The notes: generated from the sequence alone by a model not told the origin. 64,000 bases of DNA from a bacterium (GCA_029100545.1 JAQXPH010000016.1:10008-74007), one strand, 5' to 3'. Positions 8,336-35,586 are shown, counted from the stretch's first letter. Translations and numbers: made by a program.

Positions 8336-8344
8336 TAATATACA

Positions 8345-8470
8345 TCTTATAAAGAGTGATGGAGGGACTAGCCCGTTGAAGTCACACCAACCTATTAAAT
8401 TAGGTGGTAATGCTAGATCTATAAGATAACTTTATCACTCAAGATATTGTTATCTTGGGTGTTTTTTTGA
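8345..8470 (+). promoter_or_regulatory. SAM-I (S-box) riboswitch with rho-independent terminator
   Basis: tcttataaagagtgatggagggactagcccgttgaagtcacaccaacc...ggtggtaatgc...ataagata matches the S-box consensus (CTTATCAAGAG..GGAGGGACTGGCCCGATGAA..CC.GCAACC). Terminator caagata/tatcttg plus a T7 run at about 8440-8468, directly upstream of metK. Confidence 0.85.
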
Positions 8471-24364: not shown

Positions 24365-24440
24365 GCCCAATTAGCTCAGTCGGTAGAGCGCACGGCTGTT
24401 AACCGTTAGGTCGTAGGTTCGAGTCCTACATTGGGCGCCA
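24365..24440 (+). tRNA. tRNA-Asn (anticodon GTT), CCA encoded
   Basis: Acceptor stem GCCCAAT/ATTGGGC; D-arm AGCTCAGTCGGTAGAGC; anticodon loop CTGTTAA; T-arm GGTTCGAGTCC; ends GCCA. Confidence 0.9.
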
Positions 24441-24512: not shown

Positions 24513-24579
24513 TTTGAAAATATTACTTTTAAAAAAAATAATATAATGTTATACTAGTAATTGAAAGGTGTTTTTTAAT

Positions 24580-25497
24580 ATGAATGATAAAATAAGTATG
24601 ATTGAACGTTATGGTGATGATTTAACAAAAAAAGAATATATTACAGATCCTGCTATTGCAAGAGATAAAGAAATAAAAGATTGTATATTAATTTTACTTA
24701 CTCCTGAAAAAAGTGCTCTTTTAGTAGGTAAGGCTGGTATTGGTAAAACAGCCATAGTTGAGGGAATAGCTTATCGTATTCAAAAAGGAATGGTGCCTAA
24801 TGCATTAATTGGTTGGTCAATAATAAAAATAAATATAACTAGTTTAATGGGTGAAACTCAAAGTGAAGGACAAATTGAAAATCGTATTGATTTACTTGTT
24901 CAAGAACTTGCACAAAGACCTAAAACAATTTTATTTATTGATGAAACTCATCTTCTTGTAAATAGACAAGGTGGATTAGATTTTGCAAATATGTTAAAAT
25001 CTGGTCTTGATCGAGGAACAATTAAAATGATTGGTGCTACAACTACAGAAGAATATGAAGCATACATATTAAGAGATCGTGCTTTTTTACGACGTTTTCA
25101 GAAAGTTGATGTTTTTGAAGCATCTCAAGATGATTGTGTAAAAATTTTAATGGGAACATACCCAAAACTTGAAAAACAAATTGGTGTAAAATTAAATTAT
25201 ACTTCATTTATAATTGAAAAAATTATGCGTTTTATTGTTGAAATGACAGATGAATATAAAAGAATATATGAAATATCAAATAGATATCCAGACATATGTT
25301 TAACAATTATTTCTAATGCATTTACTTATGCTTTATATGATAATAGTAATATAGTGACAATTAAACATTTTTATAAAGCAGTTTGCAATGCTAGAAGTAT
25401 ATATCCAGATGCACTTATTAAAGAAAAACAAAGATTTATTACAGTATTTAATGATATGTTAAAAAATGAAAATGTTGACTTAAATGATACAAAATAG
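24580..25497 (+). CDS. Orphan Clp/Hsp100 D1-type AAA+ ATPase domain protein (about 305 aa, no N-domain, M-domain or D2)
   Basis: [48 protein letters not shown]..., [38 protein letters not shown] all line up with ClpA/ClpB D1 motifs (Walker A, Walker B, sensor, arginine finger). The ORF ends at the end of the D1 small domain. Confidence 0.6.
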
Positions 25498-26349: not shown

Positions 26350-26385
26350 AAAATTAATCGCTTTTGATTAATTTTTTTTCTATTT
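26350..26385. terminator. Bidirectional intrinsic terminator between nusG and the convergent ABC permease gene
   Basis: aaaaattaatcgcttttgattaatttttttt hairpin with A/T runs on both sides. Confidence 0.6.
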
Positions 26386-27148
26386 TAGAAATAATAAAGT
26401 ATAGTAAGTAAGATATAATAATTAAAATAAATATTGATGCCATTACAAGATCTAAATTAAATACTTGAGTCCCATAAATAATTAAATATCCTAAACCTTT
26501 TTTACTTACTAAAAATTCTCCAGTAATTATTCCTATCAAAGTTAAAGAAATATTTAATTTTAAACTAGAAATAATTGTATTATAAGAACTAGGAATAACT
26601 AATTTAAATAGTATATCTTTTTTCGTGGCATTAAATGTTTTAAACATTTTTAATTTAATTTGGTCAGTATTTAAAAAACCATTATATATTGTCATCATAC
26701 TAACAATTAAGTTAATAAGTAATGCCATAATTATTATACTTTTTGTATTGGCCCCGAAAATTATTATTATAATTGGTCCTAATGCTACTTTAGGAAGTGC
26801 ATTTAAAATAGTTAAAAATGGTTCAAATATTTTAGCTATAAAAGGATATTCGTAAAAAATAACCGCTATTAAAAAACCTAAAATTATACCTAAAATAAAT
26901 GCAATTAATACTTCATATAAAGTAGTAAAAATATGTGGAAATAGATTATTTGTAATTATAAGATTTTCAATTGTTTTAATCATTTGTGAAGGGCTTGAAT
27001 AAATAAATGAGTTTAATATTTCTTTTTTAGTGAGTATTTCCCAACTGAGAAATAAAATTATTATTAAAGATATTTGAATTATTTTAATAATTATATTTTC
27101 TTTCTTCTTTTTCCTTAAAAATTTTTTTTGATTTTCAGATTGATACAT
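26354..27148 (-). CDS. ABC transporter permease, NitT/TauT (SsuC/TauC-like) family
   Basis: Six TM segments; EAA-like loop region (LNALPKVALGPIIIIIFG). Start overlaps the 3' end of the ATPase gene fragment. Confidence 0.75.
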   Translation of the reverse strand: MYQSENQKKFLRKKKKENIIIKIIQISLIIILFLSWEILTKKEILNSFIYSSPSQMIKTIENLIITNNLFPHIFTTLYEVLIAFILGIILGFLIAVIFYEYPFIAKIFEPFLTILNALPKVALGPIIIIIFGANTKSIIIMALLINLIVSMMTIYNGFLNTDQIKLKMFKTFNATKKDILFKLVIPSSYNTIISSLKLNISLTLIGIITGEFLVSKKGLGYLIIYGTQVFNLDLVMASIFILIIISYLLYFIISKIEKKLIKSD

Positions 27149-27476
27149 CCAAATCCCTCCATATCATATCATAATATGTAGAAAATTCTTTACATTTACG
27201 ATTGTTAATTGGTGATGTTTTATTTTCCATTTCAATATTATATATTTTCTTTATATGAGATGGCCTTTTTGAGCAAACAATAATTTTATCACTCAATGAA
27301 ATTGCTTCGGCAATATCATGCGTAATCATAATAACTGTTTTTTTTTCGTTTTTTATTATATTATATACATCATCTGAAACTTTTAATCTTGATTGATAAT
27401 CTAATGCAGAAAATGGCTCATCTAATAGAAGAATATCTGGTTTAATTGCTAGTGTTCTGATTAAAGCAACTCTTTG
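27135..27476 (-). pseudogene. 3' portion of an ssuB/tauB-like ABC ATPase gene cut by the integrative element (Walker B and H-loop half)
   Basis: Reverse-strand reading of 27330-27476 gives ...QRVALIRTLAIKPDILLLDEPFSALDYQSRLKVSDDVYNIIKNEKKTVIMITHDIAEAI... with no start. It is continuous in sequence logic with the 5' fragment that ends ...LSGGMKQRVA. Confidence 0.8.
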
Positions 27477-27562
27477 AATACAGTAAAGACACTAATGCCT
27501 TATCAAAGCCTTAAAAAATAAGGCTTTTTAAATTTTTGTTTTTTTACGTTTAACTTGGATTT

Positions 27563-27802
27563 TTAAGATTTTTTTAAAATTTTATTTATTTTATTCTTTA
27601 TCCATTCTTCCAAATATCCCATTGCTCTCCAACAACATATTGCTCTTTCTAAACCAAGTGATGGATTAAATAATTCATTAATTCTTTCACTACCTAATTT
27701 AGCAAGCCAATCTTTTATTTCATTATTACCATTACTATTAATTAGATTATATAAATCTTCTTCAGTTAATGATTTTAAATCATCTATATTAGTTATTATT
27801 TC
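27563..27802 (-). other. 79-codon open frame with no start codon, overlapping the 3' end of the RhuM-Doc gene in the +1 frame. Either a C-terminal extension reached by frameshift or a gene remnant
   Basis: Reads EIITNIDDLKSLTEEDLYNLINSNGNNEIKDWLAKLGSERINELFNPSLGLERAICCWRAMGYLEEWIKNKINKILKKS; no ATG/GTG/TTG until codon 61. Confidence 0.3.
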
Positions 27803-28730
27803 TTAAAAAATTCATTACTAAATCAATTAGTATATCCTTTTCTTTCGGATTAGACTGTGCTATAAGTAGTGTGATTGCAACAAGTGTATTATTGTCAATA
27901 ACCTGTTCGTTTTCTTTATATAGAATATTATAGAATTCTAGGAAATATATGAATAATGTTGCAGCAATTCTTTTATTACCATCTATAAAAGTATGATTTT
28001 TAGTAATTAAATACAAGAAATTGGCTGCTTTTTCCTCTGTTGTAGGGTATAAGTCTTTTCCATCAAAAGATTGATATATATTACCGATAATAGCTTTTAA
28101 ACCTTTATCTCTTTCTAATGCAAATAAATCACTATTGCTATTAAATTTTAATTTACTTATAATATCCATACAATCTTCATATACAATTTTATTATTGTTA
28201 ATAGTTCCACTTGGTTTAGTTATTCTTTTATGGTCATAATCATCAAGTAAATTTAAAGCATTTGAATAATAATTTATAACTTTTATAATTTCTTGAGCTT
28301 CACTACCTTTTAATTCTGTATCAATTCTACCAGCTATATTTATTAATTTAATAGTCTTTTCAAGATATTCTAATCTTTTTTGATTAACTGCATAACCTTT
28401 AATCATGTAATCTTTTAAAACTTTTGTAGCCCATTTTCTAAAAATAACACCATTTTTACTTTTAACACGATAACCAATACTAATTACCATATCTAAATTA
28501 TAGTAATCAACTTGATAAGTTTTACCATCTTTGGCAGTTGTTGCAAAATTTGCAACAACTGAATTATCCACTTCTTCTTCAAGTGCATTTTTTATATGCC
28601 TGGAAATAACAGATTTATCTCTACCAAATAATTTTGCCATTTGATCTAGAGACAACCATACTGTTTCATCTTTCATATTTACTTCTAATTTTACATTTTG
28701 ATTTTCAAATAATATAATTTCATTTTTCAT
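27789..28730 (-). CDS. RhuM-family N-terminal domain fused to a Doc-type Fic domain (Fic/DOC family protein)
   Basis: N-terminus KNEIILFENQNVKLEVNMKDETVWLSLDQMAKLFGRDKSVISRHIKN is RhuM-like. C-terminus KNHTFIDGNKRIAATLFIYFLEF matches the Doc active-site motif H-x-F-x-D-G-N-K-R (P1 Doc: NHPFIDGNKRTA). Confidence 0.75.
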   Translation of the reverse strand: MKNEIILFENQNVKLEVNMKDETVWLSLDQMAKLFGRDKSVISRHIKNALEEEVDNSVVANFATTAKDGKTYQVDYYNLDMVISIGYRVKSKNGVIFRKWATKVLKDYMIKGYAVNQKRLEYLEKTIKLINIAGRIDTELKGSEAQEIIKVINYYSNALNLLDDYDHKRITKPSGTINNNKIVYEDCMDIISKLKFNSNSDLFALERDKGLKAIIGNIYQSFDGKDLYPTTEEKAANFLYLITKNHTFIDGNKRIAATLFIYFLEFYNILYKENEQVIDNNTLVAITLLIAQSNPKEKDILIDLVMNFLRNNN

Positions 28731-28840
28731 TAATTATCACATCCTTTACTATGAATTTATATAAAAGGTTTAGAAGTACACCTTTCACTTATATTATTGT
28801 AAAAAACTTTTAAATTTCCTTTTGTTTTTCAAAATTTTTT

Positions 28841-30436
28841 TCAAAATTTGTTAAATTTCCATTTAATTTGAATATTTCGAATATTATTATTAATTTTGCC
28901 TATATAAATTTTTTCAATAAAATCTTCAATAATTATTCTATTTAATTTTTTAAATTCTTGATATTTATGAAAATCTTTTGGCTTTTTTATAATATTTTCT
29001 TTTTTTTGATAAAAGTTTAATTCATTTTTAATAGACTTAATTTGTTTATTATATATAATTTCATTTTTATTATATTCTTCTATTAAATTTTTAAATTGCT
29101 TTTTTGTAATTATTCCATCAACTTTATCTTCATATATTTTTTTAAAATATTTTTTAATTTTTTTTAATTGATTTTCAACATTTTGTTTTTGACTTTCTAA
29201 TATTTTAATTTTATTTAATAAATTACTATTTTTATTATTCTTTCTTTCTAATATTAAAAGTTTTTCATCAAAATATTTTCTTATTTTCTTATTTATTTCA
29301 TCCAATATAATTTTTTCTAAAACATCATATCTAATTGAACTTTTATTAATACAATCATTGTAATCATCTTTATTATTAGAACAAACTAAGTATTCATATT
29401 TGGAAGAATTTTTCTTTCTCATATAGCAACCACATTCTTCACAAAATACTTTGCCAGAGAAGTTATGAACAATACCTTTTACTTTCATAGGTTTTGTTCT
29501 TTCTTTTAGAGCAATTTGAACTTTTGTAAATGTTTCTTTATCTATTATTGCTTCGTGCATATTTTCTCTACGAATCCATTTATCTTCAGGTTTGTTTATT
29601 ATTTTATGATTTTTATAACTAATTGTAGTTCTTTTACCTTGTACAAGATTACCTAAATATATTTCATTTGTAAGAATTCTTTTAATGGCACCAGCATTCC
29701 ATTTTATTTGCTCCCTAGGTCTATTACTAATTATATTTAATTTACACCCTTTTTGATATTTATAAAGTGATGGGGAAGGAATATTTTTGTCATTTAAATA
29801 TTTTGCTATTTTTGTAAAACCAAACCCATTTAAATATAAATTAAATATTTCTTTAACTATTTCTGAGGCAATTGGATCAATAATTAATTTATTGTTATTT
29901 TTTTTAGATATTTCAAATCCAAATGGTGCAAATGGGGAAATAAATTCTCCGTTTTTCATTTTAGCATTAAAAGCACTACGAATATTATTTGATACATCTT
30001 CTAAAAACCATTCATTTACAAGTCCATTGATTTGTCTTGATTTTTTATTTCCAGTATTTGCTGTATCAGCATTATCTGCTAATCCTATAAATCTTACATT
30101 CCATTCTTTAAATTTATTATTGATATATCTTTCTACAATTTCCATGTCTCTTGAAAATCTTGATTGACTTTTACACAAAACAATATCAAGTTTGTGATTT
30201 TCACAATCTTTAATTAATCTTTCGAATTCAGGTCTAAATGTTCCTGCACCAGATAAGTCTTCATCACAATATTCTTGGGTTAATATTAATTCAGAATGTT
30301 TATTAATGTAATCAATTAGCATATTTCTTTGGTTTTTAATGGATTCACTTGTCTCGTCCTTACTTATCTTATCTTTGTCTTCATTTGATAATCTTAAATA
30401 TATGCCAACTTTATAATATTTTTTTTCTTTATTCAT
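28841..30436 (-). CDS. Large serine recombinase (resolvase/invertase catalytic domain + recombinase domain + zinc ribbon + coiled coil)
   Basis: VGIYLRLSNEDKD (catalytic Ser region), DEDLSGAGTFRPEFERLIKD...IVLCKSQSRFSRD (resolvase core), Cys-rich zinc-ribbon segment CEECGCYMRKK...YLVCSNNKDDYNDC, and a long C-terminal coiled coil. Confidence 0.85.
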   Translation of the reverse strand: MNKEKKYYKVGIYLRLSNEDKDKISKDETSESIKNQRNMLIDYINKHSELILTQEYCDEDLSGAGTFRPEFERLIKDCENHKLDIVLCKSQSRFSRDMEIVERYINNKFKEWNVRFIGLADNADTANTGNKKSRQINGLVNEWFLEDVSNNIRSAFNAKMKNGEFISPFAPFGFEISKKNNNKLIIDPIASEIVKEIFNLYLNGFGFTKIAKYLNDKNIPSPSLYKYQKGCKLNIISNRPREQIKWNAGAIKRILTNEIYLGNLVQGKRTTISYKNHKIINKPEDKWIRRENMHEAIIDKETFTKVQIALKERTKPMKVKGIVHNFSGKVFCEECGCYMRKKNSSKYEYLVCSNNKDDYNDCINKSSIRYDVLEKIILDEINKKIRKYFDEKLLILERKNNKNSNLLNKIKILESQKQNVENQLKKIKKYFKKIYEDKVDGIITKKQFKNLIEEYNKNEIIYNKQIKSIKNELNFYQKKENIIKKPKDFHKYQEFKKLNRIIIEDFIEKIYIGKINNNIRNIQIKWKFNKF

Positions 30437-30575
30437 CTTTATCTATTACATCTAACTTATAATCTATTTCTTGATTATTTATAATATTATATAATTTTTT
30501 ATTAATAATTTTTTTTAATTGATTATCAGTCATATTATTGTCATAAATTTCCTTAACATTATAAGTTATCATCAT
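30429..30575 (-). CDS. Small ORF (48 aa) translationally coupled to the serine recombinase (ATGAATAA overlap). Candidate recombination directionality factor or regulator
   Basis: Shine-Dalgarno TTAGGAGTTGAT then ATGATG...; MMITYNVKEIYDNNMTDNQLKKIINKKLYNIINNQEIDYKLDVIDKDE. Its stop overlaps the recombinase ATG. Below the ORF-track length cut-off. Confidence 0.35.
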   Translation of the reverse strand: MMITYNVKEIYDNNMTDNQLKKIINKKLYNIINNQEIDYKLDVIDKDE

Positions 30576-30690
30576 ATCAACTCCTAATTAAATATATTAA
30601 TAAAATATAAATTTAAACTATAGAAAATGAATTGTATACTTCTAAATGATTTAATATAATAATTTTTATTTGTGTCTATACTGCATTCAT

Positions 30691-31109
30691 GCAACTCTTT
30701 GCTTCATACCACCAGAAAGTTCTTTAGGATATTTATTCATAAAGTCTTTCAATCCATAGGTAGTTAATAAATTCTTAACATATTCAATATTTTCCTTAGT
30801 TTTAATTTTTTTTATTTCTAGTCCCAAAAGTGCATTGTCTAAAATTGTTAGGTAGGGTAGTAATGCATCTTCTTGTAACATGTATCCTATTATAGTATTT
30901 TTTTTATAAAATGTAATATTACCATTACTTGGTTTATCTAAACCTGCTATAATATTTAATAAAGTTGATTTTCCACAACCGGATGAACCAACAATACATA
31001 TAAAATCATTTTTATTTACATCAAAAGATACTTTATCAATTGCTTTAATTTCTCCCTCTTTTGTATAAAATACTTTAGATAAATTTTCTACGCTTAATAT
31101 TTTATGCAT
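30691..31109 (-). pseudogene. 5' portion of the ssuB/tauB-like ABC ATPase gene (Walker A, Q-loop and signature motif), cut after LSGGMKQRVA by the element
   Basis: MHKILSVENLSKVF...GSSGCGKSTLLNIIAG...LSGGMKQRVA then a stop created at the element boundary (TGA at 30687-30689). Confidence 0.8.
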
Positions 31110-31276: not shown

Positions 31277-32533
31277 GTGAATAATAATTTAGATAGAATT
31301 CGATGTAGAATAGAAAGAGAACGCAAAAACTGTCCTCAAAGTATATGTTGTTTCGGTCCGACAGGCCCAACTGGTCCAACTGGTCCATCAGGGGGTCCAA
31401 CAGGTCCAACGGGTGCAACAGGACCAACAGGTCCAACAGGTCCAACAGGAGCAACCGGCTCAACAGGTCCAGCTGGTTTAATTGGTCTAACAGGAGCAAC
31501 AGGACCAACGGGTGCAACAGGCCCAACAGGAGCAACAGGTCCAACGGGTGCAACAGGAGCAACAGGTCCAACAGGAGCAACAGGAGCAACAGGCCCAACA
31601 GGTGCAACAGGTCCAACGGGTGCAACAGGCCCAACAGGTGCAACAGGACCAACGGGTGCAACAGGTCCAACAGGAGCAACAGGACCAACGGGTGCAACAG
31701 GTCTAACAGGAGCAACAGGTCCAACGGGTGCAACAGGTCCAACAGGAGCAACAGGTCCAACAGGAGCAACAGGTCCGACAGGAGCAACAGGTCCAACGGG
31801 TGCAACAGGTCCAACGGGTGCAACAGGACCAACTGGTCCAGCAGGAAGTGATGGAACAGCAGACACTATAACAATAAGAAATACTACTACTGGAGATCCA
31901 GGAACTAATGCAACTGTAACTGATACTTCTAGAAGTCCAAATCATATATTAGATTTTGTTATACCACGTGGTGCAGATGGAGATATTGGCCCAATGGGTC
32001 CAACAGGCCCAACTGGACCTGCAGGTAAAGATGCAGAATCATGTTGCATATGCATTAATCAAATGCGAAATATTATTGAACAAATTATAACATTATATCC
32101 AAATGATAATTTATTTATTTCATTGGAAAGTGGAAATAATGTTAGTGGTAGACCTGGTATGTTAATTCCTGGCCCAAATAGCAATCCTAACTCTGGCCTT
32201 TTCCAACTTATAAATAACGTTGGAACACTAGAAGAAACAGTATCACTAAGTAAAATAGTATCAATAAGAATTACAAGTGCAGCTTATAATGATGAGATTA
32301 CTTATCTGCCTATTTCTGATGAAACATCTAATGGATGTGATTGTGTATTTGAAAATGCAATTAGAACTTTATTACCAGAAAATACATGTTGTGTAAGTAT
32401 TAAAGCCGGAGGACAAACAATTGCCCAAGGAACAGTTAAAAAAAGTGAATATGGTATGATTGTTATTGTAGATAATAATGATAATAATCCAACATTTATT
32501 TCAACTTGTAATATAGAAGTAATAAGTAAATAA
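31277..32533 (+). CDS. Collagen-like triple-helix repeat protein, BclA-like (exosporium-type) with a C-terminal globular domain
   Basis: GTG start after GGAAAGGAG. About 165 residues of uninterrupted Gly-X-Y triplets ([16 protein letters not shown]...), the GPT repeats typical of Bacillus/Clostridioides BclA proteins, then a roughly 230-aa non-collagenous C-terminal domain. No LPXTG. Confidence 0.7.
31357..31851. repeat. Tandem 9/18-bp repeats (GGTCCAACAGGAGCAACA-like) encoding the (GPT/GAT)n collagen region. Locally GC-rich
   Basis: Visible periodic repetition of ggtccaacaggagcaaca / ggtgcaacaggcccaaca units throughout. Confidence 0.9.
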
Positions 32534-32668: not shown

Positions 32669-33403
32669 ATGAAAAAAAATAATAAAGTAAAAAACATAAT
32701 TATAATTATTTTATGTAGTATTCTAGTTTTATTATCTATATATTTTTTATTAGATTATTATAATATTGATAAATATGATAAATTTATATTAAATGAAAAT
32801 GAAGTGCCAGCTTTAAAAGAAGAAATCTATGAACAGCAAATTAGTTTTTTAAAAGAAAAATATAATAATGATGATATTGTTGGAACAATTTCTATAAGTG
32901 ATACTGATTTTAATACAATAGTTTTACAAGGAAAAGACAATGAATATTATTTAAATCATTTACCAGATAAAACTTATAATATTAATGGTTCAATTTTTTT
33001 AGATTATAGAGTAGACATAGATAATAGTGATAAACTATTAATATTTGGTCATAGCTCTCCAAACTATACATTACCTATAATGATTATTGAAAATTATAAT
33101 TCAAAAGAATACTATGATAAGCATCCTTACATTTATATTTCCACAGAAAAAAGCGTTAGAAAATATCAAATATTTTCAGCATATGTTGAAGTTAGTGATT
33201 GGGATTATATGAAAATAAAATATCAATCAAATGAAGAAAAATTAGAACATTATCAAAAACTTAAAAATAAATCATTTTATGAAACAAATATAGATGTAAA
33301 TGAAAATGATAATATTTTAATTGTACAAACTTGTAGTAATTTAAAAGAATATAGTAAATATTCTAAAAAATATATGTTAGTAATTGCTAAAGAAGTAAAA
33401 TAA
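32669..33403 (+). CDS. Sortase B-like protein (divergent paralog)
   Basis: N-terminal membrane anchor; LIFGHSSPNYTLPIM (His region), ILIVQTCSN (TLxTC-like catalytic Cys) in sortase-B order. The C-terminal conserved segment diverges from its neighbour. Confidence 0.45.
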   Translation: MKKNNKVKNIIIIILCSILVLLSIYFLLDYYNIDKYDKFILNENEVPALKEEIYEQQISFLKEKYNNDDIVGTISISDTDFNTIVLQGKDNEYYLNHLPDKTYNINGSIFLDYRVDIDNSDKLLIFGHSSPNYTLPIMIIENYNSKEYYDKHPYIYISTEKSVRKYQIFSAYVEVSDWDYMKIKYQSNEEKLEHYQKLKNKSFYETNIDVNENDNILIVQTCSNLKEYSKYSKKYMLVIAKEVK

Positions 33404-33439: not shown

Positions 33440-34261
33440 TTATTTATTATTATATTTAATAAGTTTTGCATGAACAACCATTTTTTCATCATCATTATAG
33501 CAAGTTGATAAAGTTAATATTTTATCATTAATATTTACATTAGTATTAAAATTAAACATTGTTCTTCCTTTAATTAAATCAATAAAATTTTGATATTCTT
33601 CATCACTTGTAAATGATATTTTTAAATAATCACTTGTTGTAGGTATTTTATAAATACTAAATATTTGCCATATTGAATTCATATTCTGAGTAGAAAGTCT
33701 AATTATATAGTTATTTGAATTACTTTGCCATGAAGAGTTTAAAGTGTCTTTTAAAGATCCAAACATAGTTTTATTTAATCTTCCATGACCATAAATAATA
33801 GTATTTTTATCAAGATTATTAATATTATTTCTATAATCTAAGAAAATCCAACCAGCATCATTATTTTTTTTATCGAATGATTTTGTTAAATAATAACTAT
33901 TATCACTTGTTTGAACAAAAGGATAATTTATATTTGTACCTTCAACTTTTATCCAACCAACTGTATCAGAATTAAATGTTTTTAAATTATTAAGATCAAC
34001 TTCAATAAGTTTCATTTTTATATATTCAAAATATGCTGAATTTTGTTCATCTTCATTTTCTACTATCTGAGCATCGTCAGTATCAATCTCTAGTACTTGA
34101 ACTTTTTCAGAAACAGTTTTAATAATATTATTTGTTTTACTATTATCTATTGCCCAAAAAATTAATTTTATAATGCAAATTATAAAGATAATAAATAAAA
34201 TTAATATAGTTAATAATATACATAGATTTTTTTTATTTAATTTTCTTCTTTTATTTTTCAT
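33440..34261 (-). CDS. Class B sortase
   Basis: Membrane anchor; TVGWIKVEGTNINYPFVQ, IIYGHGRLNKTMFGSL, KILTLSTCYNDDEKMVVHAKLI, all classic SrtB motifs. Confidence 0.7.
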   Translation of the reverse strand: MKNKRRKLNKKNLCILLTILILFIIFIICIIKLIFWAIDNSKTNNIIKTVSEKVQVLEIDTDDAQIVENEDEQNSAYFEYIKMKLIEVDLNNLKTFNSDTVGWIKVEGTNINYPFVQTSDNSYYLTKSFDKKNNDAGWIFLDYRNNINNLDKNTIIYGHGRLNKTMFGSLKDTLNSSWQSNSNNYIIRLSTQNMNSIWQIFSIYKIPTTSDYLKISFTSDEEYQNFIDLIKGRTMFNFNTNVNINDKILTLSTCYNDDEKMVVHAKLIKYNNK

Positions 34262-34605: not shown

Positions 34606-35586
34606 TTAGTTTATTTTTTGTTTTAATATTAATTTATTATATGGTACATAATCATTAATTAAATCATAATCAATTAATAAATCTTCAAGGTTTGTAAGTA
34701 ATTTTTCACTAATATAGTAATTATCTAAATATGAGTCAGCATCTTTATATCTTTTAATTATTTTTGCTAAATCATTAAGTGATGTATCAGGAAATTGTTT
34801 AAGTATAATTTTTGCAATAGTGTATTCGTCATTATCTTTAACAAACTTTAGACCTCTATTTATTGCTTTTGTAAAGCCTTTTATAATATCATGGTTTTCC
34901 TCAATAAAACTTTTTCTTGCATAAAATGTAGTATATGGCATTTCTCCAGAAAGTATACCAATGCTTGCTACAACATGTCCATATCCTTCTTGTTCAAGTT
35001 TTAAGGCATTTGGTTCGAATAAGTTTACATAGTCACCAGTTCCACCAATAAAAGCTCCAGATAAAGATGCAAAATCAATATTATAATTTATTTTAATTTT
35101 ACTTGAATCAATATTCTCATTTTTTAAAGCATTAAGAAAATTTAACGCAGGCATTCCAGAAGATCTTCCAACAAGTATTTCTTTACCATAAAGATTTTCT
35201 AATGTAAAATTATCTTCTTTATTTTTAGATATAATAAATTGGCCATCTCTTTTAGTTAGTCCACAAAAAATTTGTAAGTAATCTTTTTTATTTTTTTCGT
35301 AAACATATATTGCACTTTCCGCTCCAGCTAGACCAATTTGAACATCTTTTGATAGTACTGCTGTGCTAACTTTATCAGCACCTGGTGTTAAAATTAGTTC
35401 AATATCAATGTTTTCATCTTGAAAATATCCTTTTTCAATTGCAACATATAATGGACTATAAAATACTGAGTGTGTAACTTCTGCTAATTTAATTTTATTA
35501 TTTTGTTTTTCTTTTTTAGGTAATAATAAAAATATAGAAAAAAGAATAATTAAAGATATTAGTATAATATAAAATGTTTTTTTCAA
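34606..35586 (-). CDS. ABC transporter substrate-binding protein, NMT1/SsuA/TauA-like (sulfonate/nitrate/taurine family)
   Basis: Signal/anchor N-terminus, then KLAEVTHSVFYSPLYVAIEKGYFQDENIDIELI...GLAG, typical of SsuA/NMT1-family periplasmic binding proteins. Same family as the downstream permease and ATPase. Confidence 0.65.
   Translation of the reverse strand: MKKTFYIILISLIILFSIFLLLPKKEKQNNKIKLAEVTHSVFYSPLYVAIEKGYFQDENIDIELILTPGADKVSTAVLSKDVQIGLAGAESAIYVYEKNKKDYLQIFCGLTKRDGQFIISKNKEDNFTLENLYGKEILVGRSSGMPALNFLNALKNENIDSSKIKINYNIDFASLSGAFIGGTGDYVNLFEPNALKLEQEGYGHVVASIGILSGEMPYTTFYARKSFIEENHDIIKGFTKAINRGLKFVKDNDEYTIAKIILKQFPDTSLNDLAKIIKRYKDADSYLDNYYISEKLLTNLEDLLIDYDLINDYVPYNKLILKQKIN

What the first reader, a model, noticed from the sequence alone, without database searches (positions are those of the whole stretch)
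27135..31109. A 3.2-kb serine-recombinase element splits an ABC ATPase gene exactly at the Walker-B boundary; excision would restore the gene (possible skin-like switch)
Read directly from the sequence. The ssuB/tauB-like ATPase is in two pieces, ...LSGGMKQRVA* (30691..31109) and (no start)QRVALIRTLAIKPDILLLDEPFSALD... (27135..27476). Between them lies 27477..30690, which encodes a large serine recombinase, a RhuM-Doc fusion and a small coupled ORF. An 11-bp direct repeat, GCAACTCTTTG, flanks it (27466-27476 and 30691-30701). Imperfect inverted repeats sit at the element ends (AATACAGTAAAGACAC against the reverse complement of GTGTCTATACTGCATTCAT). Removing the insert and one repeat copy rebuilds an uninterrupted GMKQRVALIRTL frame. 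This geometry matches known gene-interrupting elements that excise through a large serine recombinase (sigK skin, active-lysogeny islands). Here the cargo is a sulfonate/nitrate-family transporter, and the element carries only a Doc-type Fic domain protein. An 11-bp shared core is longer than the 2-bp crossover expected for serine recombinases, so the att-site architecture is itself unusual.
Basis: partly seen in the sequence, partly recalled or inferred. Interest (0 to 1): 0.72.

Follow-up and report, generated by a model that had tools for sequence, protein, structure and literature searches.

The report
Serine-recombinase mini-element splitting a transporter gene
A 3.2-kb mobile element that carries its own cut-and-paste enzyme sits inside an ABC transporter ATPase gene of an uncultured gut bacterium; it belongs to a large, undescribed family that always inserts at the same two bases of this gene, and the split gene still evolves as if it were in use.

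Summary
Removing 27477..30701 rebuilds a 249-aa ABC ATPase. A public contig (L001) carries that exact protein at an empty site, 98% identical in DNA.

The insert is a minimal member of a large serine recombinase (LSR) element family. It holds a 48-aa ORF, the LSR, a RhuM-Fic/Doc gene and a BRO-N gene remnant. Of 81 loci from gut Bacilli MAGs, 61 show the junction at the same codon. Of the 20 without it, 16 are cut by a contig end within 2.3 kb of the LSR.

Fuller relatives carry a MobV relaxase, an AAA_25 protein and cargo, so the family looks like integrative mobilizable elements. Near-identical LSRs sit in hosts that differ by 34-45%, which shows horizontal transfer.

The att sites are canonical: imperfect palindromes around a GT crossover dinucleotide, with the outer motif shifted 5 bp between attP and attB. 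The 11-bp repeat is only extended identity (3-13 bp across the family). The "unusual att site" claim is rejected.

A skin-like developmental switch is not shown. In the window's own lineage the insertion looks ancestral. Both gene halves and the permease stay under strong purifying selection (omega 0.02-0.10). An intact allele nests among inserted ones. Reversible, functionally relevant excision is therefore plausible (about 0.35).

Verdict: new member of a known kind, moderate interest.

The parts
30687..31109 (-). N-terminal fragment of the ABC ATPase gene (140 aa: Walker A, Q-loop, signature LSGGM, then QRVA and a stop). Host sequence runs to about 30696; the TGA stop comes from the element's P' arm.
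   Evidence: ORF list and translation. PF00005 hit on the rebuilt protein. NCBI names the identical fragment an ATP-binding cassette domain protein (MDD5865383.1).
30668..30721 (-). attL: B arm 30696-30721, crossover dinucleotide 30694-30695 (AC on the + strand, GT on the gene strand), P' arm 30668-30693.
   Evidence: Half-site consensus from 24 attL and 61 attR junctions. GT is central in 24/24 and 60/61.
30429..30575 (-). orf48: a 48-aa ORF whose stop overlaps the LSR start by 8 nt. It is the conserved partner of the LSR and a candidate recombination directionality factor or regulator.
   Evidence: A homologue lies directly upstream of the LSR in 74 of 81 loci, with motif YN(I/V)xDIxDKxLTDxxLKxIINKKLYxIIE. 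No match in Pfam, PHROGs or PADLOC.
28841..30436 (-). Large serine recombinase, 531 aa.
   Evidence: Resolvase, Recombinase and Zn_ribbon_recom domains. phrog_95 integrase at 5e-101. Best solved relative is the SPbeta integrase SprA, 9dxh. S17, R15 and C332/C335/C352/C362 are invariant in 63 family members. It departs from 17 of 280 conserved columns, mostly conservatively and none catalytic or Cys.
27789..28730 (-). RhuM-N plus Fic/Doc fusion protein, 313 aa, with Doc-type motif HTFIDGNKR. Candidate toxin or defence cargo.
   Evidence: PF13310 at 1e-24 and PF02661 at 3e-10. TIGR01550 at 7e-7, below cutoff. phrog_577 Doc-like toxin. PADLOC PDC-S23 at 2e-120, full length. NCBI name: RhuM/Fic/DOC family protein.
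27566..27802 (-). Start-less remnant (about 78 codons) of the 285-aa BRO-N family gene that fills this slot in most relatives.
   Evidence: Three-frame translation. 48% identity to residues 99-156 of the BRO-N protein at E 8e-18. Relatives L091, L095 and L118 have a 65-81-aa ORF here.
27505..27527 (+). G+C-containing hairpin followed by a T run, terminator-like on the + strand, just inside the right end. Conserved in several relatives. Role unknown.
   Evidence: Terminator scan. The same hairpin sequence appears in the attR flanks of L004-L012, L114 and L115.
27443..27496 (-). attR: P arm 27471-27496, crossover dinucleotide 27469-27470, B' arm 27443-27468.
27135..27476 (-). C-terminal fragment of the ABC ATPase gene (QRVALIRTL..., with Walker B, D-loop and H-loop). 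It has no start codon of its own.
   Evidence: Translation. 100% identical to residues 137-249 of P0001.
26354..27148 (-). Partner permease (264 aa, BPD_transp_1, TauC/SsuC-like), overlapping the ATPase stop.
34606..35586 (-). SsuA/NMT1-like substrate-binding protein, probably the third transporter subunit, 3.5 kb upstream of the ATPase gene.
   Evidence: TIGR01728 at 3e-13, below cutoff. The orthologue in L091 carries precomputed NMT1/NMT1_2 hits.

Best explanation
The insert is an integrated, stripped-down member of a large family of site-specific integrative elements driven by a large serine recombinase.

The family targets one site in the ATPase gene of a NitT/TauT-type ABC importer in uncultured gut Bacilli. 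That site is the GT at the start of codon V139 (CAA AGA GTT), just after the signature motif.

Integration is attP x attB recombination by the element's LSR at this dinucleotide. It always has the same orientation. It truncates the ATPase after ...QRVA, because the P' arm supplies an in-frame TGA. It also leaves the Walker-B half without a start codon.

The reverse reaction, attL x attR, would remove 3,225 bp and restore the gene exactly.

The conserved recombination module is orf48 plus the LSR. Fuller relatives add an XRE regulator, an AAA_25 protein and a MobV relaxase, so they are mobilizable (IMEs). They also carry cargo such as metal-efflux ATPases.

The window copy has lost the mobilization genes. 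It keeps one candidate defence or toxin gene (RhuM-Fic/Doc) and a remnant of another (BRO-N).

Shown here: the anatomy, the att architecture, the site specificity, horizontal spread across species, a natural empty site, and selection on the LSR and on the split transporter.

Inferred: that this copy can still excise, and that orf48 controls direction.
For: Rebuild and empty site:
- The ORF rebuilds in silico.
- P0001 is 100% identical over 249 aa, and contig L001 is collinear with the rebuilt locus at 98% nt over 2,233 bp.

LSR integrity:
- Domains, catalytic Ser and the Zn ribbon are intact.
- The LSR has omega of about 0.18 within its clade.

Site specificity:
- Of 81 loci, 61 show the C-terminal fragment starting at residue Q137 downstream of the LSR.
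- Of the 20 without it, 16 are cut by a contig end within 2.3 kb of the LSR.

Att sites:
- P and P' arms share TGTGTCT..A.....ATTCA.
- B and B' share GTG.T.T five bp closer to the centre.
- GT is central in 84 of 85 junctions.
- Identity runs are 3-13 bp and their intersection is GT. This is as in the A118 model (PMC3783163).

Family backbone and cargo:
- Mob_Pre relaxase in 24 loci, AAA_25 in 9, BRO-N in 37, RhuM-Fic in 19, and P-type ATPase/ArsR/HMA cargo.
- Sizes are 2.8-8.6 kb where both ends are seen.

Horizontal transfer:
- The Mantel correlation between LSR and host distances is r = 0.15.
- LSRs 98-99% identical sit in hosts 34-46% divergent.

Other:
- orf48 is linked to the LSR in 74 of 81 loci.
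- The same minimal element at the same locus appears in independent assemblies (L091, L095, L104, L105, L114, L115, L118).
Against: - No excised circle or attP junction of this clade was found. One attP-type palindrome on a 1-kb metagenome contig (L083) has unrelated flanks.
- The window copy has no relaxase or recognisable oriT, so how it would transfer is unknown.
- Canonical LSRs do not excise without an RDF, and orf48 has no detectable similarity to any known RDF.
- Within the window's own clade the element behaves as a long-term resident rather than a frequent mover.
Confidence: 0.85

Rival explanations
1. Regulated gene integrity, or a reversible switch. This extends the best explanation rather than excluding it. 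In the window's lineage the element would be a resident that keeps the importer off. Excision in some cells or conditions would rebuild the ATPase gene, so the host still uses and needs the transporter. This would resemble the comK phage of Listeria, or skin, SPbeta and gin, but in a gut bacterium with no known differentiation.
For: - Among insertion-bearing alleles only: ATP_N shows at least 43 synonymous versus 17 nonsynonymous changes (omega 0.10, P 8e-18 against neutrality). ATP_C shows 7 versus 1 (P 9e-5). The permease shows 26 versus 2 (P 3e-16). None of the 24 N-terminal or 5 C-terminal fragments scored has a stop or gap, and the scoring filter admitted only gap-free, near-full-length matches.
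- Omega between WIN and L091 is 0.03-0.04, as low as nusG.
- Synonymous divergence of the LSR and ATP_N is of the same scale and correlated (r = 0.94), so the element is about as old as the clade.
- Both intact alleles nest inside a clade of 24 inserted alleles whose outgroups are also inserted. This implies precise loss in L001.
- The truncated fragment is far commoner than the intact gene in this clade: 32 variants, with about 70 contigs across the 15 members listed, against 1-2 intact contigs.
- It meets the TIGER criterion for putative RGI: one tight integrase clade repeatedly disrupts the same domain at the same position (PMC7192596).
- The recombination module is co-oriented with the ATPase gene and directly downstream of its promoter. 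No terminator is predicted between them.
Against: - Across the wider family the elements move horizontally, carry relaxases and varied cargo, and stack in tandem. This is typical selfish IME behaviour.
- 18 of 61 loci have a second interruption elsewhere in the operon, so restoring function there would need two excisions.
- No regulatory signal, riboswitch or sporulation link was found.
- The selection signal could come from repeated re-insertion into pre-existing alleles, or from recombination with intact alleles.
- One of the two intact alleles (L002) is mosaic and may be an assembly chimera.
Confidence: 0.35
2. Dead relic. The element is an immobile remnant of a larger IME, and the ATPase gene is permanently knocked out because the importer is dispensable. 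The IME literature describes this for serine-recombinase IMEs that disrupt dispensable genes.
For: - There is no relaxase or replication gene, and the BRO-N gene has decayed to a start-less remnant.
- The review PMC5704250 states that site-specific serine-recombinase IMEs disrupt genes dispensable for the host.
- The operon is hit by other elements in 30% of related loci.
Against: - The LSR and orf48 are intact and under purifying selection.
- Both att sites match every strongly conserved consensus position.
- The gene halves and the permease show no decay and very low omega.
- An empty site exists in the closest relative.
Confidence: 0.1
3. Assembly artefact: a chimeric join of a mobile element into a transporter gene in a metagenome-assembled contig.
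For: The window comes from a MAG. Some related short contigs (L002, L117) do look mosaic at conserved motif codons.
Against: The same junctions occur in many independent assemblies from different studies, and in two closed long-read MAG chromosomes for family members (OZ006970.1, OZ006981.1).
Confidence: 0.01

Closest known systems
Site-specific serine-recombinase IMEs of Firmicutes (for example the rumA-targeting streptococcal IMEs; review PMC5704250)
   Same: A single LSR, a MobV-type relaxase in full-length members, insertion inside a conserved protein gene that is thereby disrupted, short flanking repeats, tandem accretion, and variable cargo.
   Different: New target (codons after the ABC signature motif of a NitT/TauT-type ATPase). 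New host clade (uncultured, small-genome gut Bacilli). The LSR is at most 42% identical to anything in the plasmid or phage collections. A conserved small ORF is coupled to the LSR, whereas the review notes that no RDF has been proposed for serine-integrase IMEs. The window copy lacks the relaxase.
Tn4451/Tn4453 mobilizable transposons (TnpX + TnpZ)
   Same: An LSR with a C-terminal DUF4368 (62 of 63 family members) plus a Mob_Pre/MobV relaxase on a small element of a few kb.
   Different: TnpX has low target specificity and uses 2-bp identities, and it needs no RDF. This family is strictly site-specific at GT. Identity to DUF4368 recombinases on plasmids is only about 29%. Durrant et al. found DUF4368 in 63% of the multi-targeting clade but only 0.73% of site-specific LSRs, so this family is an exception.
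Gene-intervening elements that excise by LSR: skin (SpoIVCA), SPbeta (SprA/SprB), gin (GirC/GirX)
   Same: The LSR element sits inside a coding sequence, and precise excision rebuilds the ORF. The attP-type palindrome shares several bp with the target (9 bp in gin). gin is likewise a small non-phage element. SprA is the closest solved structure.
   Different: Those interrupt sporulation genes and excise in the terminal mother cell under sporulation sigma factors. Here the target is a nutrient importer. No developmental programme is known, and the family is clearly horizontally mobile.
Diverse LSRs converging on one conserved site in a coding sequence (Durrant et al. 2022, PMC10083194: comM/Mg-chelatase, prolyl isomerase)
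   Same: Many divergent LSRs (62-100% identity here) use one conserved attB inside a gene across species.
   Different: A different target gene. My text search of that paper found no mention of 'ABC'.

Membership tests
Large serine recombinase (serine integrase) | N-terminal resolvase catalytic domain with the nucleophilic serine in an R-x-S context | tested here: met
   PF00239 at 1e-21. YLRLS17 aligns with SprA YLRRS22. R15 and S17 are invariant in 63 sequences.
Large serine recombinase (serine integrase) | Recombinase domain plus a zinc-ribbon domain with four Cys | tested here: met
   PF07508 at 9e-27 and PF13408 at 9e-14. C332, C335, C352 and C362 are invariant.
Large serine recombinase (serine integrase) | Coiled-coil insertion in the zinc-ribbon domain that controls directionality | tested here: inconclusive
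   Residues of about 385-480 align with the coiled-coil region of SprA in the phmmer alignment. No structure was predicted.
Large serine recombinase (serine integrase) | Attachment sites of 40-50 bp, imperfect palindromes around a non-palindromic central dinucleotide, with the distal (ZD) motif 5 bp closer to the centre in attB than in attP | tested here: met
   Half-site consensus from 24 and 61 junctions. GT is central. AGTGT starts at -23 in P and at -18 in B'. ATT(C/A)A lies at -9..-5 in both. Model from PMC3783163.
Large serine recombinase (serine integrase) | Catalyses attP x attB integration and, with an RDF, attL x attR excision | not testable with these tools
   Indirect only: a natural empty site and spread of near-identical LSRs to divergent hosts.
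Integrative mobilizable element (IME) | Own integration and excision module, with flanking att sites | tested here: met
Integrative mobilizable element (IME) | Own relaxase and/or oriT but no mating-pore genes | tested here: not met
   The window copy has no relaxase. 24 related loci carry a Mob_Pre relaxase. The window copy is therefore at best a relaxase-less derivative. An oriT was not searched for.
Regulated gene integrity / gene-intervening element (skin, SPbeta, gin, comK phage) | Insertion inactivates a conserved domain, and the attP side does not restore it | tested here: met
   ABC_tran is split after the signature motif. The N fragment stops after QRVA, and the C fragment has no start.
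Regulated gene integrity / gene-intervening element (skin, SPbeta, gin, comK phage) | Several independent elements of one tight integrase clade disrupt the same domain at the same position (TIGER criterion, PMC7192596) | tested here: met
   61 junctions at one codon across dozens of species.
Regulated gene integrity / gene-intervening element (skin, SPbeta, gin, comK phage) | Excision is triggered by a developmental or environmental programme and restores function in vivo | not testable with these tools
   Only indirect evidence: purifying selection on the split gene and an intact allele nested among inserted ones.
Regulated gene integrity / gene-intervening element (skin, SPbeta, gin, comK phage) | A cognate recombination directionality factor | tested here: inconclusive
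   orf48 is linked to the LSR in 74 of 81 loci but matches no family. No interaction test was possible.
Tn4451/Tn4453 family (TnpX) | Low target specificity, with insertion at sites resembling the element joint | tested here: not met
   All informative loci use one site in one gene.
Doc-type Fic toxin (Phd-Doc) | Fic fold with the Doc variant of the active-site motif, HxFx(D/N)(A/G)NKR | tested here: met
   The motif HTFIDGNKR is read directly in the sequence. PF02661 at 3e-10, and TIGR01550 at 7e-7 (29.5 bits, below the 38.65 cutoff).
Doc-type Fic toxin (Phd-Doc) | Adjacent Phd-type antitoxin gene | tested here: not met
   No such ORF lies next to it. The N-terminal RhuM domain is fused instead. 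The fusion is a known architecture (PMC3710099).

The most novel reading that the evidence does not exclude
In a clade of small-genome, probably non-sporulating gut Bacilli, a resident mini-element of about 3 kb (an LSR plus a 48-aa partner) acts as a reversible on/off switch for a nutrient ABC importer. The split gene is kept under selection because excision regularly rebuilds it. The same operon is a contingency locus, targeted at four or more conserved-motif codons by different LSR families. This would extend regulated gene integrity beyond sporulation, heterocyst and competence genes. It would also supply the first RDF candidate for a serine-integrase IME.
Probability: 0.25. Interest if true: 0.75.

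Novelty: new member of a known kind. Interest (0 to 1): 0.45.

Why it matters
- It defines a previously undescribed, abundant family of serine-integrase elements in uncultured gut Bacilli. There are thousands of homologues in metagenomes, and 114 of the stretches matched in the species-representative genome collection encode a relative.
- The attP and attB sites are fully inferred, with a GT core. Together with a compact two-gene recombination module, this is useful raw material for integrase tool development.
- The family is a clean natural data set for how LSRs read their sites.
- It is an exception to the rule that DUF4368-bearing LSRs are multi-targeting.
- The population-genetic signal, a split importer gene that still evolves under strong constraint, makes a concrete and cheaply testable case for reversible gene inactivation outside the classical developmental systems.

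Tried and rejected
1. Prophage origin: rejected. Two scans of viral contigs with the LSR, as a single protein and as a profile, found only 30-42% relatives. The phage collection gave at most 38%. Elements with both ends are 2.8-8.6 kb and have no phage structural genes.
2. RhuM-Fic frameshifted into the downstream frame: rejected. L091 ends at the same place, and the downstream frame is a remnant of a separate BRO-N gene.
3. The 11-bp core as an unusual crossover: rejected.
4. Search for an excised circle or free attP. One metagenome scan and one viral scan used a 24-specified-base degenerate attP pattern. There was a single hit (L083, 1 kb) with flanks unrelated to any fetched element, which is inconclusive. 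Contigs of close LSR relatives (L092, L093, L118) are all integrated.
5. Riboswitch or other RNA near the transporter: none. The window holds only one tRNA and one SAM riboswitch, both elsewhere.
6. The promoter scan is uninformative in 24% G+C DNA, with fewer hits than in shuffles.
7. orf48 was searched in Pfam, NCBIfam, PHROGs and PADLOC with no hit.
9. The TIGER supplement lists only singleton IGEs disrupting ABC_tran (Fal1.18 ykoD, Lcr1.2 ytrE). I have no evidence that they are this family.

Full report
**1. Observation**

The sequence is as described. GCAACTCTTTG occurs only at 27466-27476 and 30691-30701. On the minus strand, 30687-31109 encodes MHKIL...LSGGMKQRVA followed by a stop. On the same strand, 27135-27476 encodes QRVALIRTLAIKPDILLLDEPFSALD...DVSI with no start codon.

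Deleting 27477-30701 gives a 750-nt open frame for a 249-aa ABC ATPase. It scores PF00005 at 1.5e-30. Its nearest NCBIfam models are SaoA, nitrate, taurine and sulfonate type ATPases, all below their cutoffs. The partner permease (26354-27148) overlaps the ATPase stop. An SsuA/NMT1-like binding protein lies at 34606-35586.

The break falls in codons R138/V139, immediately after the signature motif. That is about 14 codons before Walker B, so "Walker-B boundary" is imprecise.

**2. Content of the insert**

All genes are on the minus strand, co-oriented with the ATPase gene:
- orf48 (30429-30575), which overlaps the LSR start by 8 nt.
- A 531-aa large serine recombinase (28841-30436) with Resolvase, Recombinase and Zn_ribbon_recom domains. 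It matches phrog_95 integrase at 5e-101. Its best solved relative is the SPbeta integrase SprA.
- A 313-aa RhuM-N plus Fic protein (27789-28730) with the Doc-type motif HTFIDGNKR.
- A start-less frame of about 78 codons (27566-27802).

I first suspected that the last frame was a frameshifted tail of the Fic gene. It is instead 48% identical to the middle of a 285-aa BRO-N protein that occupies this slot in most relatives. The orthologous Fic gene in L091 ends at the same place, so the frame is a gene remnant.

The RhuM-Fic protein matches PADLOC PDC-S23 over its full length at 2e-120. The BRO-N protein matches PDC-S13 at 6e-109. Both are untested "guilt-by-embedding" defence candidates. The RhuM-Doc fusion is a known architecture, proposed to be a toxin in defence loci (PMC3710099).

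**3. A natural empty site**

A search with the rebuilt ATPase found P0001, 100% identical over all 249 aa. Its contig L001 (Logan ERR12318434, 2,233 bp) is collinear with the rebuilt locus at 98% nucleotide identity. It carries ...GGTATGAAACAAAGAGTTGCTTTAATCAG... at the junction.

A second intact allele, L002, is 97.6% identical up to the core and only about 80% identical after it. It may be a recombinant or an assembly chimera, so I do not rely on it.

**4. The element belongs to a large, strictly site-specific family**

The LSR has thousands of metagenomic homologues. A scan of one genome per species returned 80 loci with LSRs 62-72% identical to the window's. Almost all come from "Bacilli bacterium", "Tenericutes" or "Mycoplasma sp." gut MAGs of humans, rabbits, ruminants, chickens and mice. 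They include Ca. Scybalousia and Ca. Onthousia (Bacilli incertae sedis).

In 61 of 81 loci, counting the window, the LSR is followed at 27-4,863 bp by the C-terminal ATPase fragment, starting exactly at Q137, and then the permease. Of the other 20 loci, 16 are cut by a contig end within 2.3 kb of the LSR. One has the N-terminal junction instead. One is the upstream partner of a tandem pair.

Twenty-four loci show the N-terminal junction. Elements with both ends measure 2.8-8.6 kb.

**5. Attachment sites**

I aligned all junctions on the gene strand and read each half-site toward the centre:

| Half-site | Consensus |
|---|---|
| P | aaaagTGTCTtcActa.ATTCAaAGA |
| P' | attTGTGTCTatActatATTCAtcCA |
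| B | a.tTaTCtGGtGGtATGAgaCAAAGA |
| B' | TagTaGCaAGtGT.CT.ATTAaaGCa |

- The central dinucleotide is GT in 60 of 61 attR and 24 of 24 attL junctions.
- The run of identity between attL and attR ranges from 3 bp (L008, GTT) to 13 bp (L063). L053 shares CAAAGAGT and L008 shares GTT, so the only bases common to all runs are GT. That is therefore the crossover.
- The proximal motif ATT(C/A)A sits at -9..-5 in both attP and attB arms.
- The distal motif AGTGT starts at -23 in P and at -18 in B'. This is the 5-bp inward shift of the zinc-ribbon-domain motif described for A118-family integrases (PMC3783163).
- The P' arm motif TGAAT supplies the in-frame TGA that ends the N fragment one or two codons after the crossover.
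- The window's four half-sites match every strongly conserved position.

The att architecture is therefore textbook. The 11-bp repeat is attP mimicry of attB. The gin element shares 9 bp with its target (PMC5595907).

**6. What kind of element**

I clustered the ORFs inside the elements. The backbone is:

attL - [variable cargo] - (XRE regulator, small HTH-like ORF, AAA_25/DnaB-like protein, Mob_Pre relaxase) - orf48 - LSR - (BRO-N protein or RhuM-Fic) - attR

- The relaxase is present in 24 loci and AAA_25 in 9.
- Cargo includes ArsR-HMA-P-type ATPase cassettes, Sua5, ABC exporters and sigma factors.
- This is the gene set of integrative mobilizable elements with a serine integrase (PMC5704250).
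- No close relative exists in phage or plasmid collections.
- Two family members lie in tandem in the closed MAG OZ006970.1 (L074 and L025). The IME literature describes this as accretion.
- The window copy is the minimal form. It has the recombination module and one cargo gene, with no relaxase.

**7. Horizontal mobility**

For 36 loci I compared LSR distances with host distances (C-terminal fragment plus permease). The Mantel r is 0.15. LSRs 98-99% identical sit in host genes 34-46% divergent (for example L024/L016 and L017/L025). Nearly identical hosts (L025/L082) carry LSRs 33% divergent. At the family level, the interruption is therefore not an anciently co-inherited, domesticated feature.

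**8. The recombination module**

All 63 aligned LSRs keep R15, S17 and the four zinc-ribbon cysteines. Mean column identity is 78%. The window protein differs at 17 of 280 highly conserved columns. The changes are mostly conservative (for example Y/F, S/A, E/D), and none is catalytic or Cys.

Sixty-two of 63 carry DUF4368. The window copy scores only E 0.0036 for that domain. Durrant et al. report this domain in 63% of their multi-targeting clade and only 0.73% of site-specific LSRs. This family is therefore an exception. Tn4451's TnpX, an IME integrase with low target specificity, needs no RDF.

A homologue of orf48 (36-54 aa, with core motif YN(I/V)xDIxDKxLTDxxLKxIINKKLYxIIE) lies directly upstream of the LSR in 74 of 81 loci, whatever the cargo. 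It is the obvious RDF or regulator candidate, but it has no detectable homology to anything named. The IME review notes that no RDF has been proposed for serine-integrase IMEs.

**9. The window's own lineage tells a different story from the family at large**

Prevalence:
- The truncated 140-aa fragment forms a 90%-identity cluster of 32 distinct sequences. The 15 members listed add up to about 70 contigs, from many human and pig gut studies.
- The intact gene in this clade is represented only by P0001 and P0002.
- All contigs long enough show the same minimal element: small ORF, 531-aa LSR, RhuM-Fic, BRO-N remnant.
- A look-up by the exact permease sequence is blind to insertion state. It gave L114, L115 and the window as inserted. 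L001 is empty. L117 has an intact junction, but its 5' part is foreign and G+C-richer. L116 is uninformative.

Age of the insertion:
- In a neighbour-joining tree of the N-terminal fragment DNA, both intact alleles nest inside the 24 inserted alleles.
- The successive outgroups (L093, L092, L062, L018) are also inserted. L001 is the window's sister at 0.74% distance.
- Synonymous divergence of the LSR and of ATP_N is of the same size and correlated (r = 0.94, driven partly by L092).
- The simplest reading is one old insertion, inherited vertically in this clade, with a precise loss in L001.

Selection, counted only among inserted alleles:

| Region | Synonymous | Nonsynonymous | omega | P against neutrality |
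|---|---|---|---|---|
| ATP_N | at least 43 | 17 | about 0.10 | 8e-18 |
| ATP_C | 7 | 1 | 0.04 | 9e-5 |
| Permease | 26 | 2 | 0.02 | 3e-16 |
| LSR | 130 | 107 | 0.18 | not relevant |

- None of the 24 N-terminal or 5 C-terminal fragments scored has a stop or gap. The scoring filter admitted only gap-free, near-full-length matches.
- Between the window and L091, the transporter omega (0.03-0.04) equals that of nusG.
- A permanently dead importer should drift. This one does not.

Either the gene is regularly rebuilt by excision and used, or closely related elements re-invade intact alleles often enough to mimic that signal.

Caveats:
- The C-terminal and permease samples are small (5 sequences).
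- Synonymous divergence is heterogeneous along the locus (0.07-0.24).
- L097 shows signs of element replacement.

**10. Verdict on mechanism**

With high confidence (0.85), this is a canonical LSR integrative element of an IME family, inserted at its dedicated attB. Excision at GT would restore the gene.

A sporulation-type developmental switch is not supported. I found no such link. The family's closed long-read MAG chromosomes are only 1.3-1.5 Mb, and I infer that genomes this small are unlikely to belong to spore-formers. This was not tested.

A reversible inactivation that matters to the host is a live possibility (about 0.35), given section 9 and the TIGER criterion for regulated gene integrity. 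Against it stand the family's horizontal mobility and the frequent second hits in the same operon.

**11. Novelty**

Known kinds cover this finding:
- site-specific serine-integrase IMEs that disrupt genes;
- many LSRs converging on one conserved site in a coding sequence;
- LSR gene-intervening elements.

I found no description of this family, target or host clade in the searched literature.

New points are the target, the host clade, a DUF4368 family that is nonetheless site-specific, the conserved orf48 partner, and the selection signal on the split gene. I file it as a new member of a known kind, with moderate interest.

Noticed in passing
Related loci L010, L032, L056, L063, L067, L069, L073, L079, L080 (permease gene, residue about 207-209): The partner permease gene is itself cut at one conserved spot (...IG|..GEFLVSK). 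A distant LSR (23-25% identical, about 400-480 aa, YVRVSTD motif) lies on the opposite strand just beyond the cut in eight of the nine loci (none was detected in L056). This is a second LSR element family with its own site in the same operon.
   Followed up: partly
Related loci L004, L054, L009, L023, L020 (ATPase residue about 193-204, after THDIAE) and L008, L031 (after the Walker B LLLDEPF): There are two further insertion points inside the C-terminal half of the same ATPase gene. In L004, L054 and L020 an LSR of 360-510 aa (25-27% identical) sits inside the insert. In L004 and L054 the gene is in three pieces. Overall, 18 of 61 loci carry a second interruption in the operon.
   Followed up: partly
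L002 (SRR24151123) and L117 (XIAO16 scaffold_32766): Two short contigs have intact junctions but are mosaics. Their identity breakpoints coincide with att sites: L002 at QRVA, and L117 at HDIAEA with a G+C-richer 5' part. They could be assembly chimeras at conserved motif codons, real recombinants, or an element end that carries a replacement 5' gene part.
   Followed up: partly
L074 and L025 (both from closed MAG OZ006970.1, about 14 kb apart): Two members of the LSR family (63% and 70% identical to the window LSR) lie in tandem in one ATPase gene. This is accretion of elements at one att site.
   Followed up: partly
L094 1-6900 (ERZ27280449 k141_1570421): In one close relative, another LSR (523 aa) with an AAA_25/DnaB_C protein and a group II intron-type reverse transcriptase lies immediately upstream of the ATPase N-terminal fragment.
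   Followed up: no
L083 980-1024 (metagenome contig OGPS01042906.1): A free attP-type palindrome (GTGTCTTCATCACTCTCAAAGA-GT-TCTTTGAATGTTTTATAGACAC) sits on a 1-kb contig. Its flanks match none of the fetched elements. It could be an unintegrated relative.
   Followed up: partly
L035, last about 30 bases: The contig of this public MAG ends in what translates as RSEEHTSEL. I recognise this from memory as an Illumina adapter (AGATCGGAAGAGCACACGTCTGAACTC). It looks like untrimmed adapter in a deposited assembly.
   Followed up: no
window 31277-32533 (+), 32669-33403 (+), 33440-34261 (-): A 418-aa collagen-like protein with long G-P-T/G-A-T triplet repeats, and two class B sortase genes, lie between the transporter's binding-protein gene and its ATPase gene. 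The repeat region differs in length between the window and L091.
   Followed up: no
window 8344-8427 (+) and 24365-24437 (+); 24568-25497 (+): A SAM riboswitch and a tRNA are the only Rfam hits in the window. The 309-aa ORF at 24568-25497 matches only the first AAA module of ClpA/ClpB-type proteins, so it looks like a short or truncated Clp-like ATPase.
   Followed up: no
Related loci, slot between the LSR and attR: Two alternative single-gene PADLOC defence candidates, PDC-S13 (BRO-N, 285 aa) and PDC-S23 (RhuM-Fic), occupy the same slot. Where RhuM-Fic is present, a BRO-N remnant often follows it (window, L035, L037, L091, L118). This suggests cassette replacement.
   Followed up: partly
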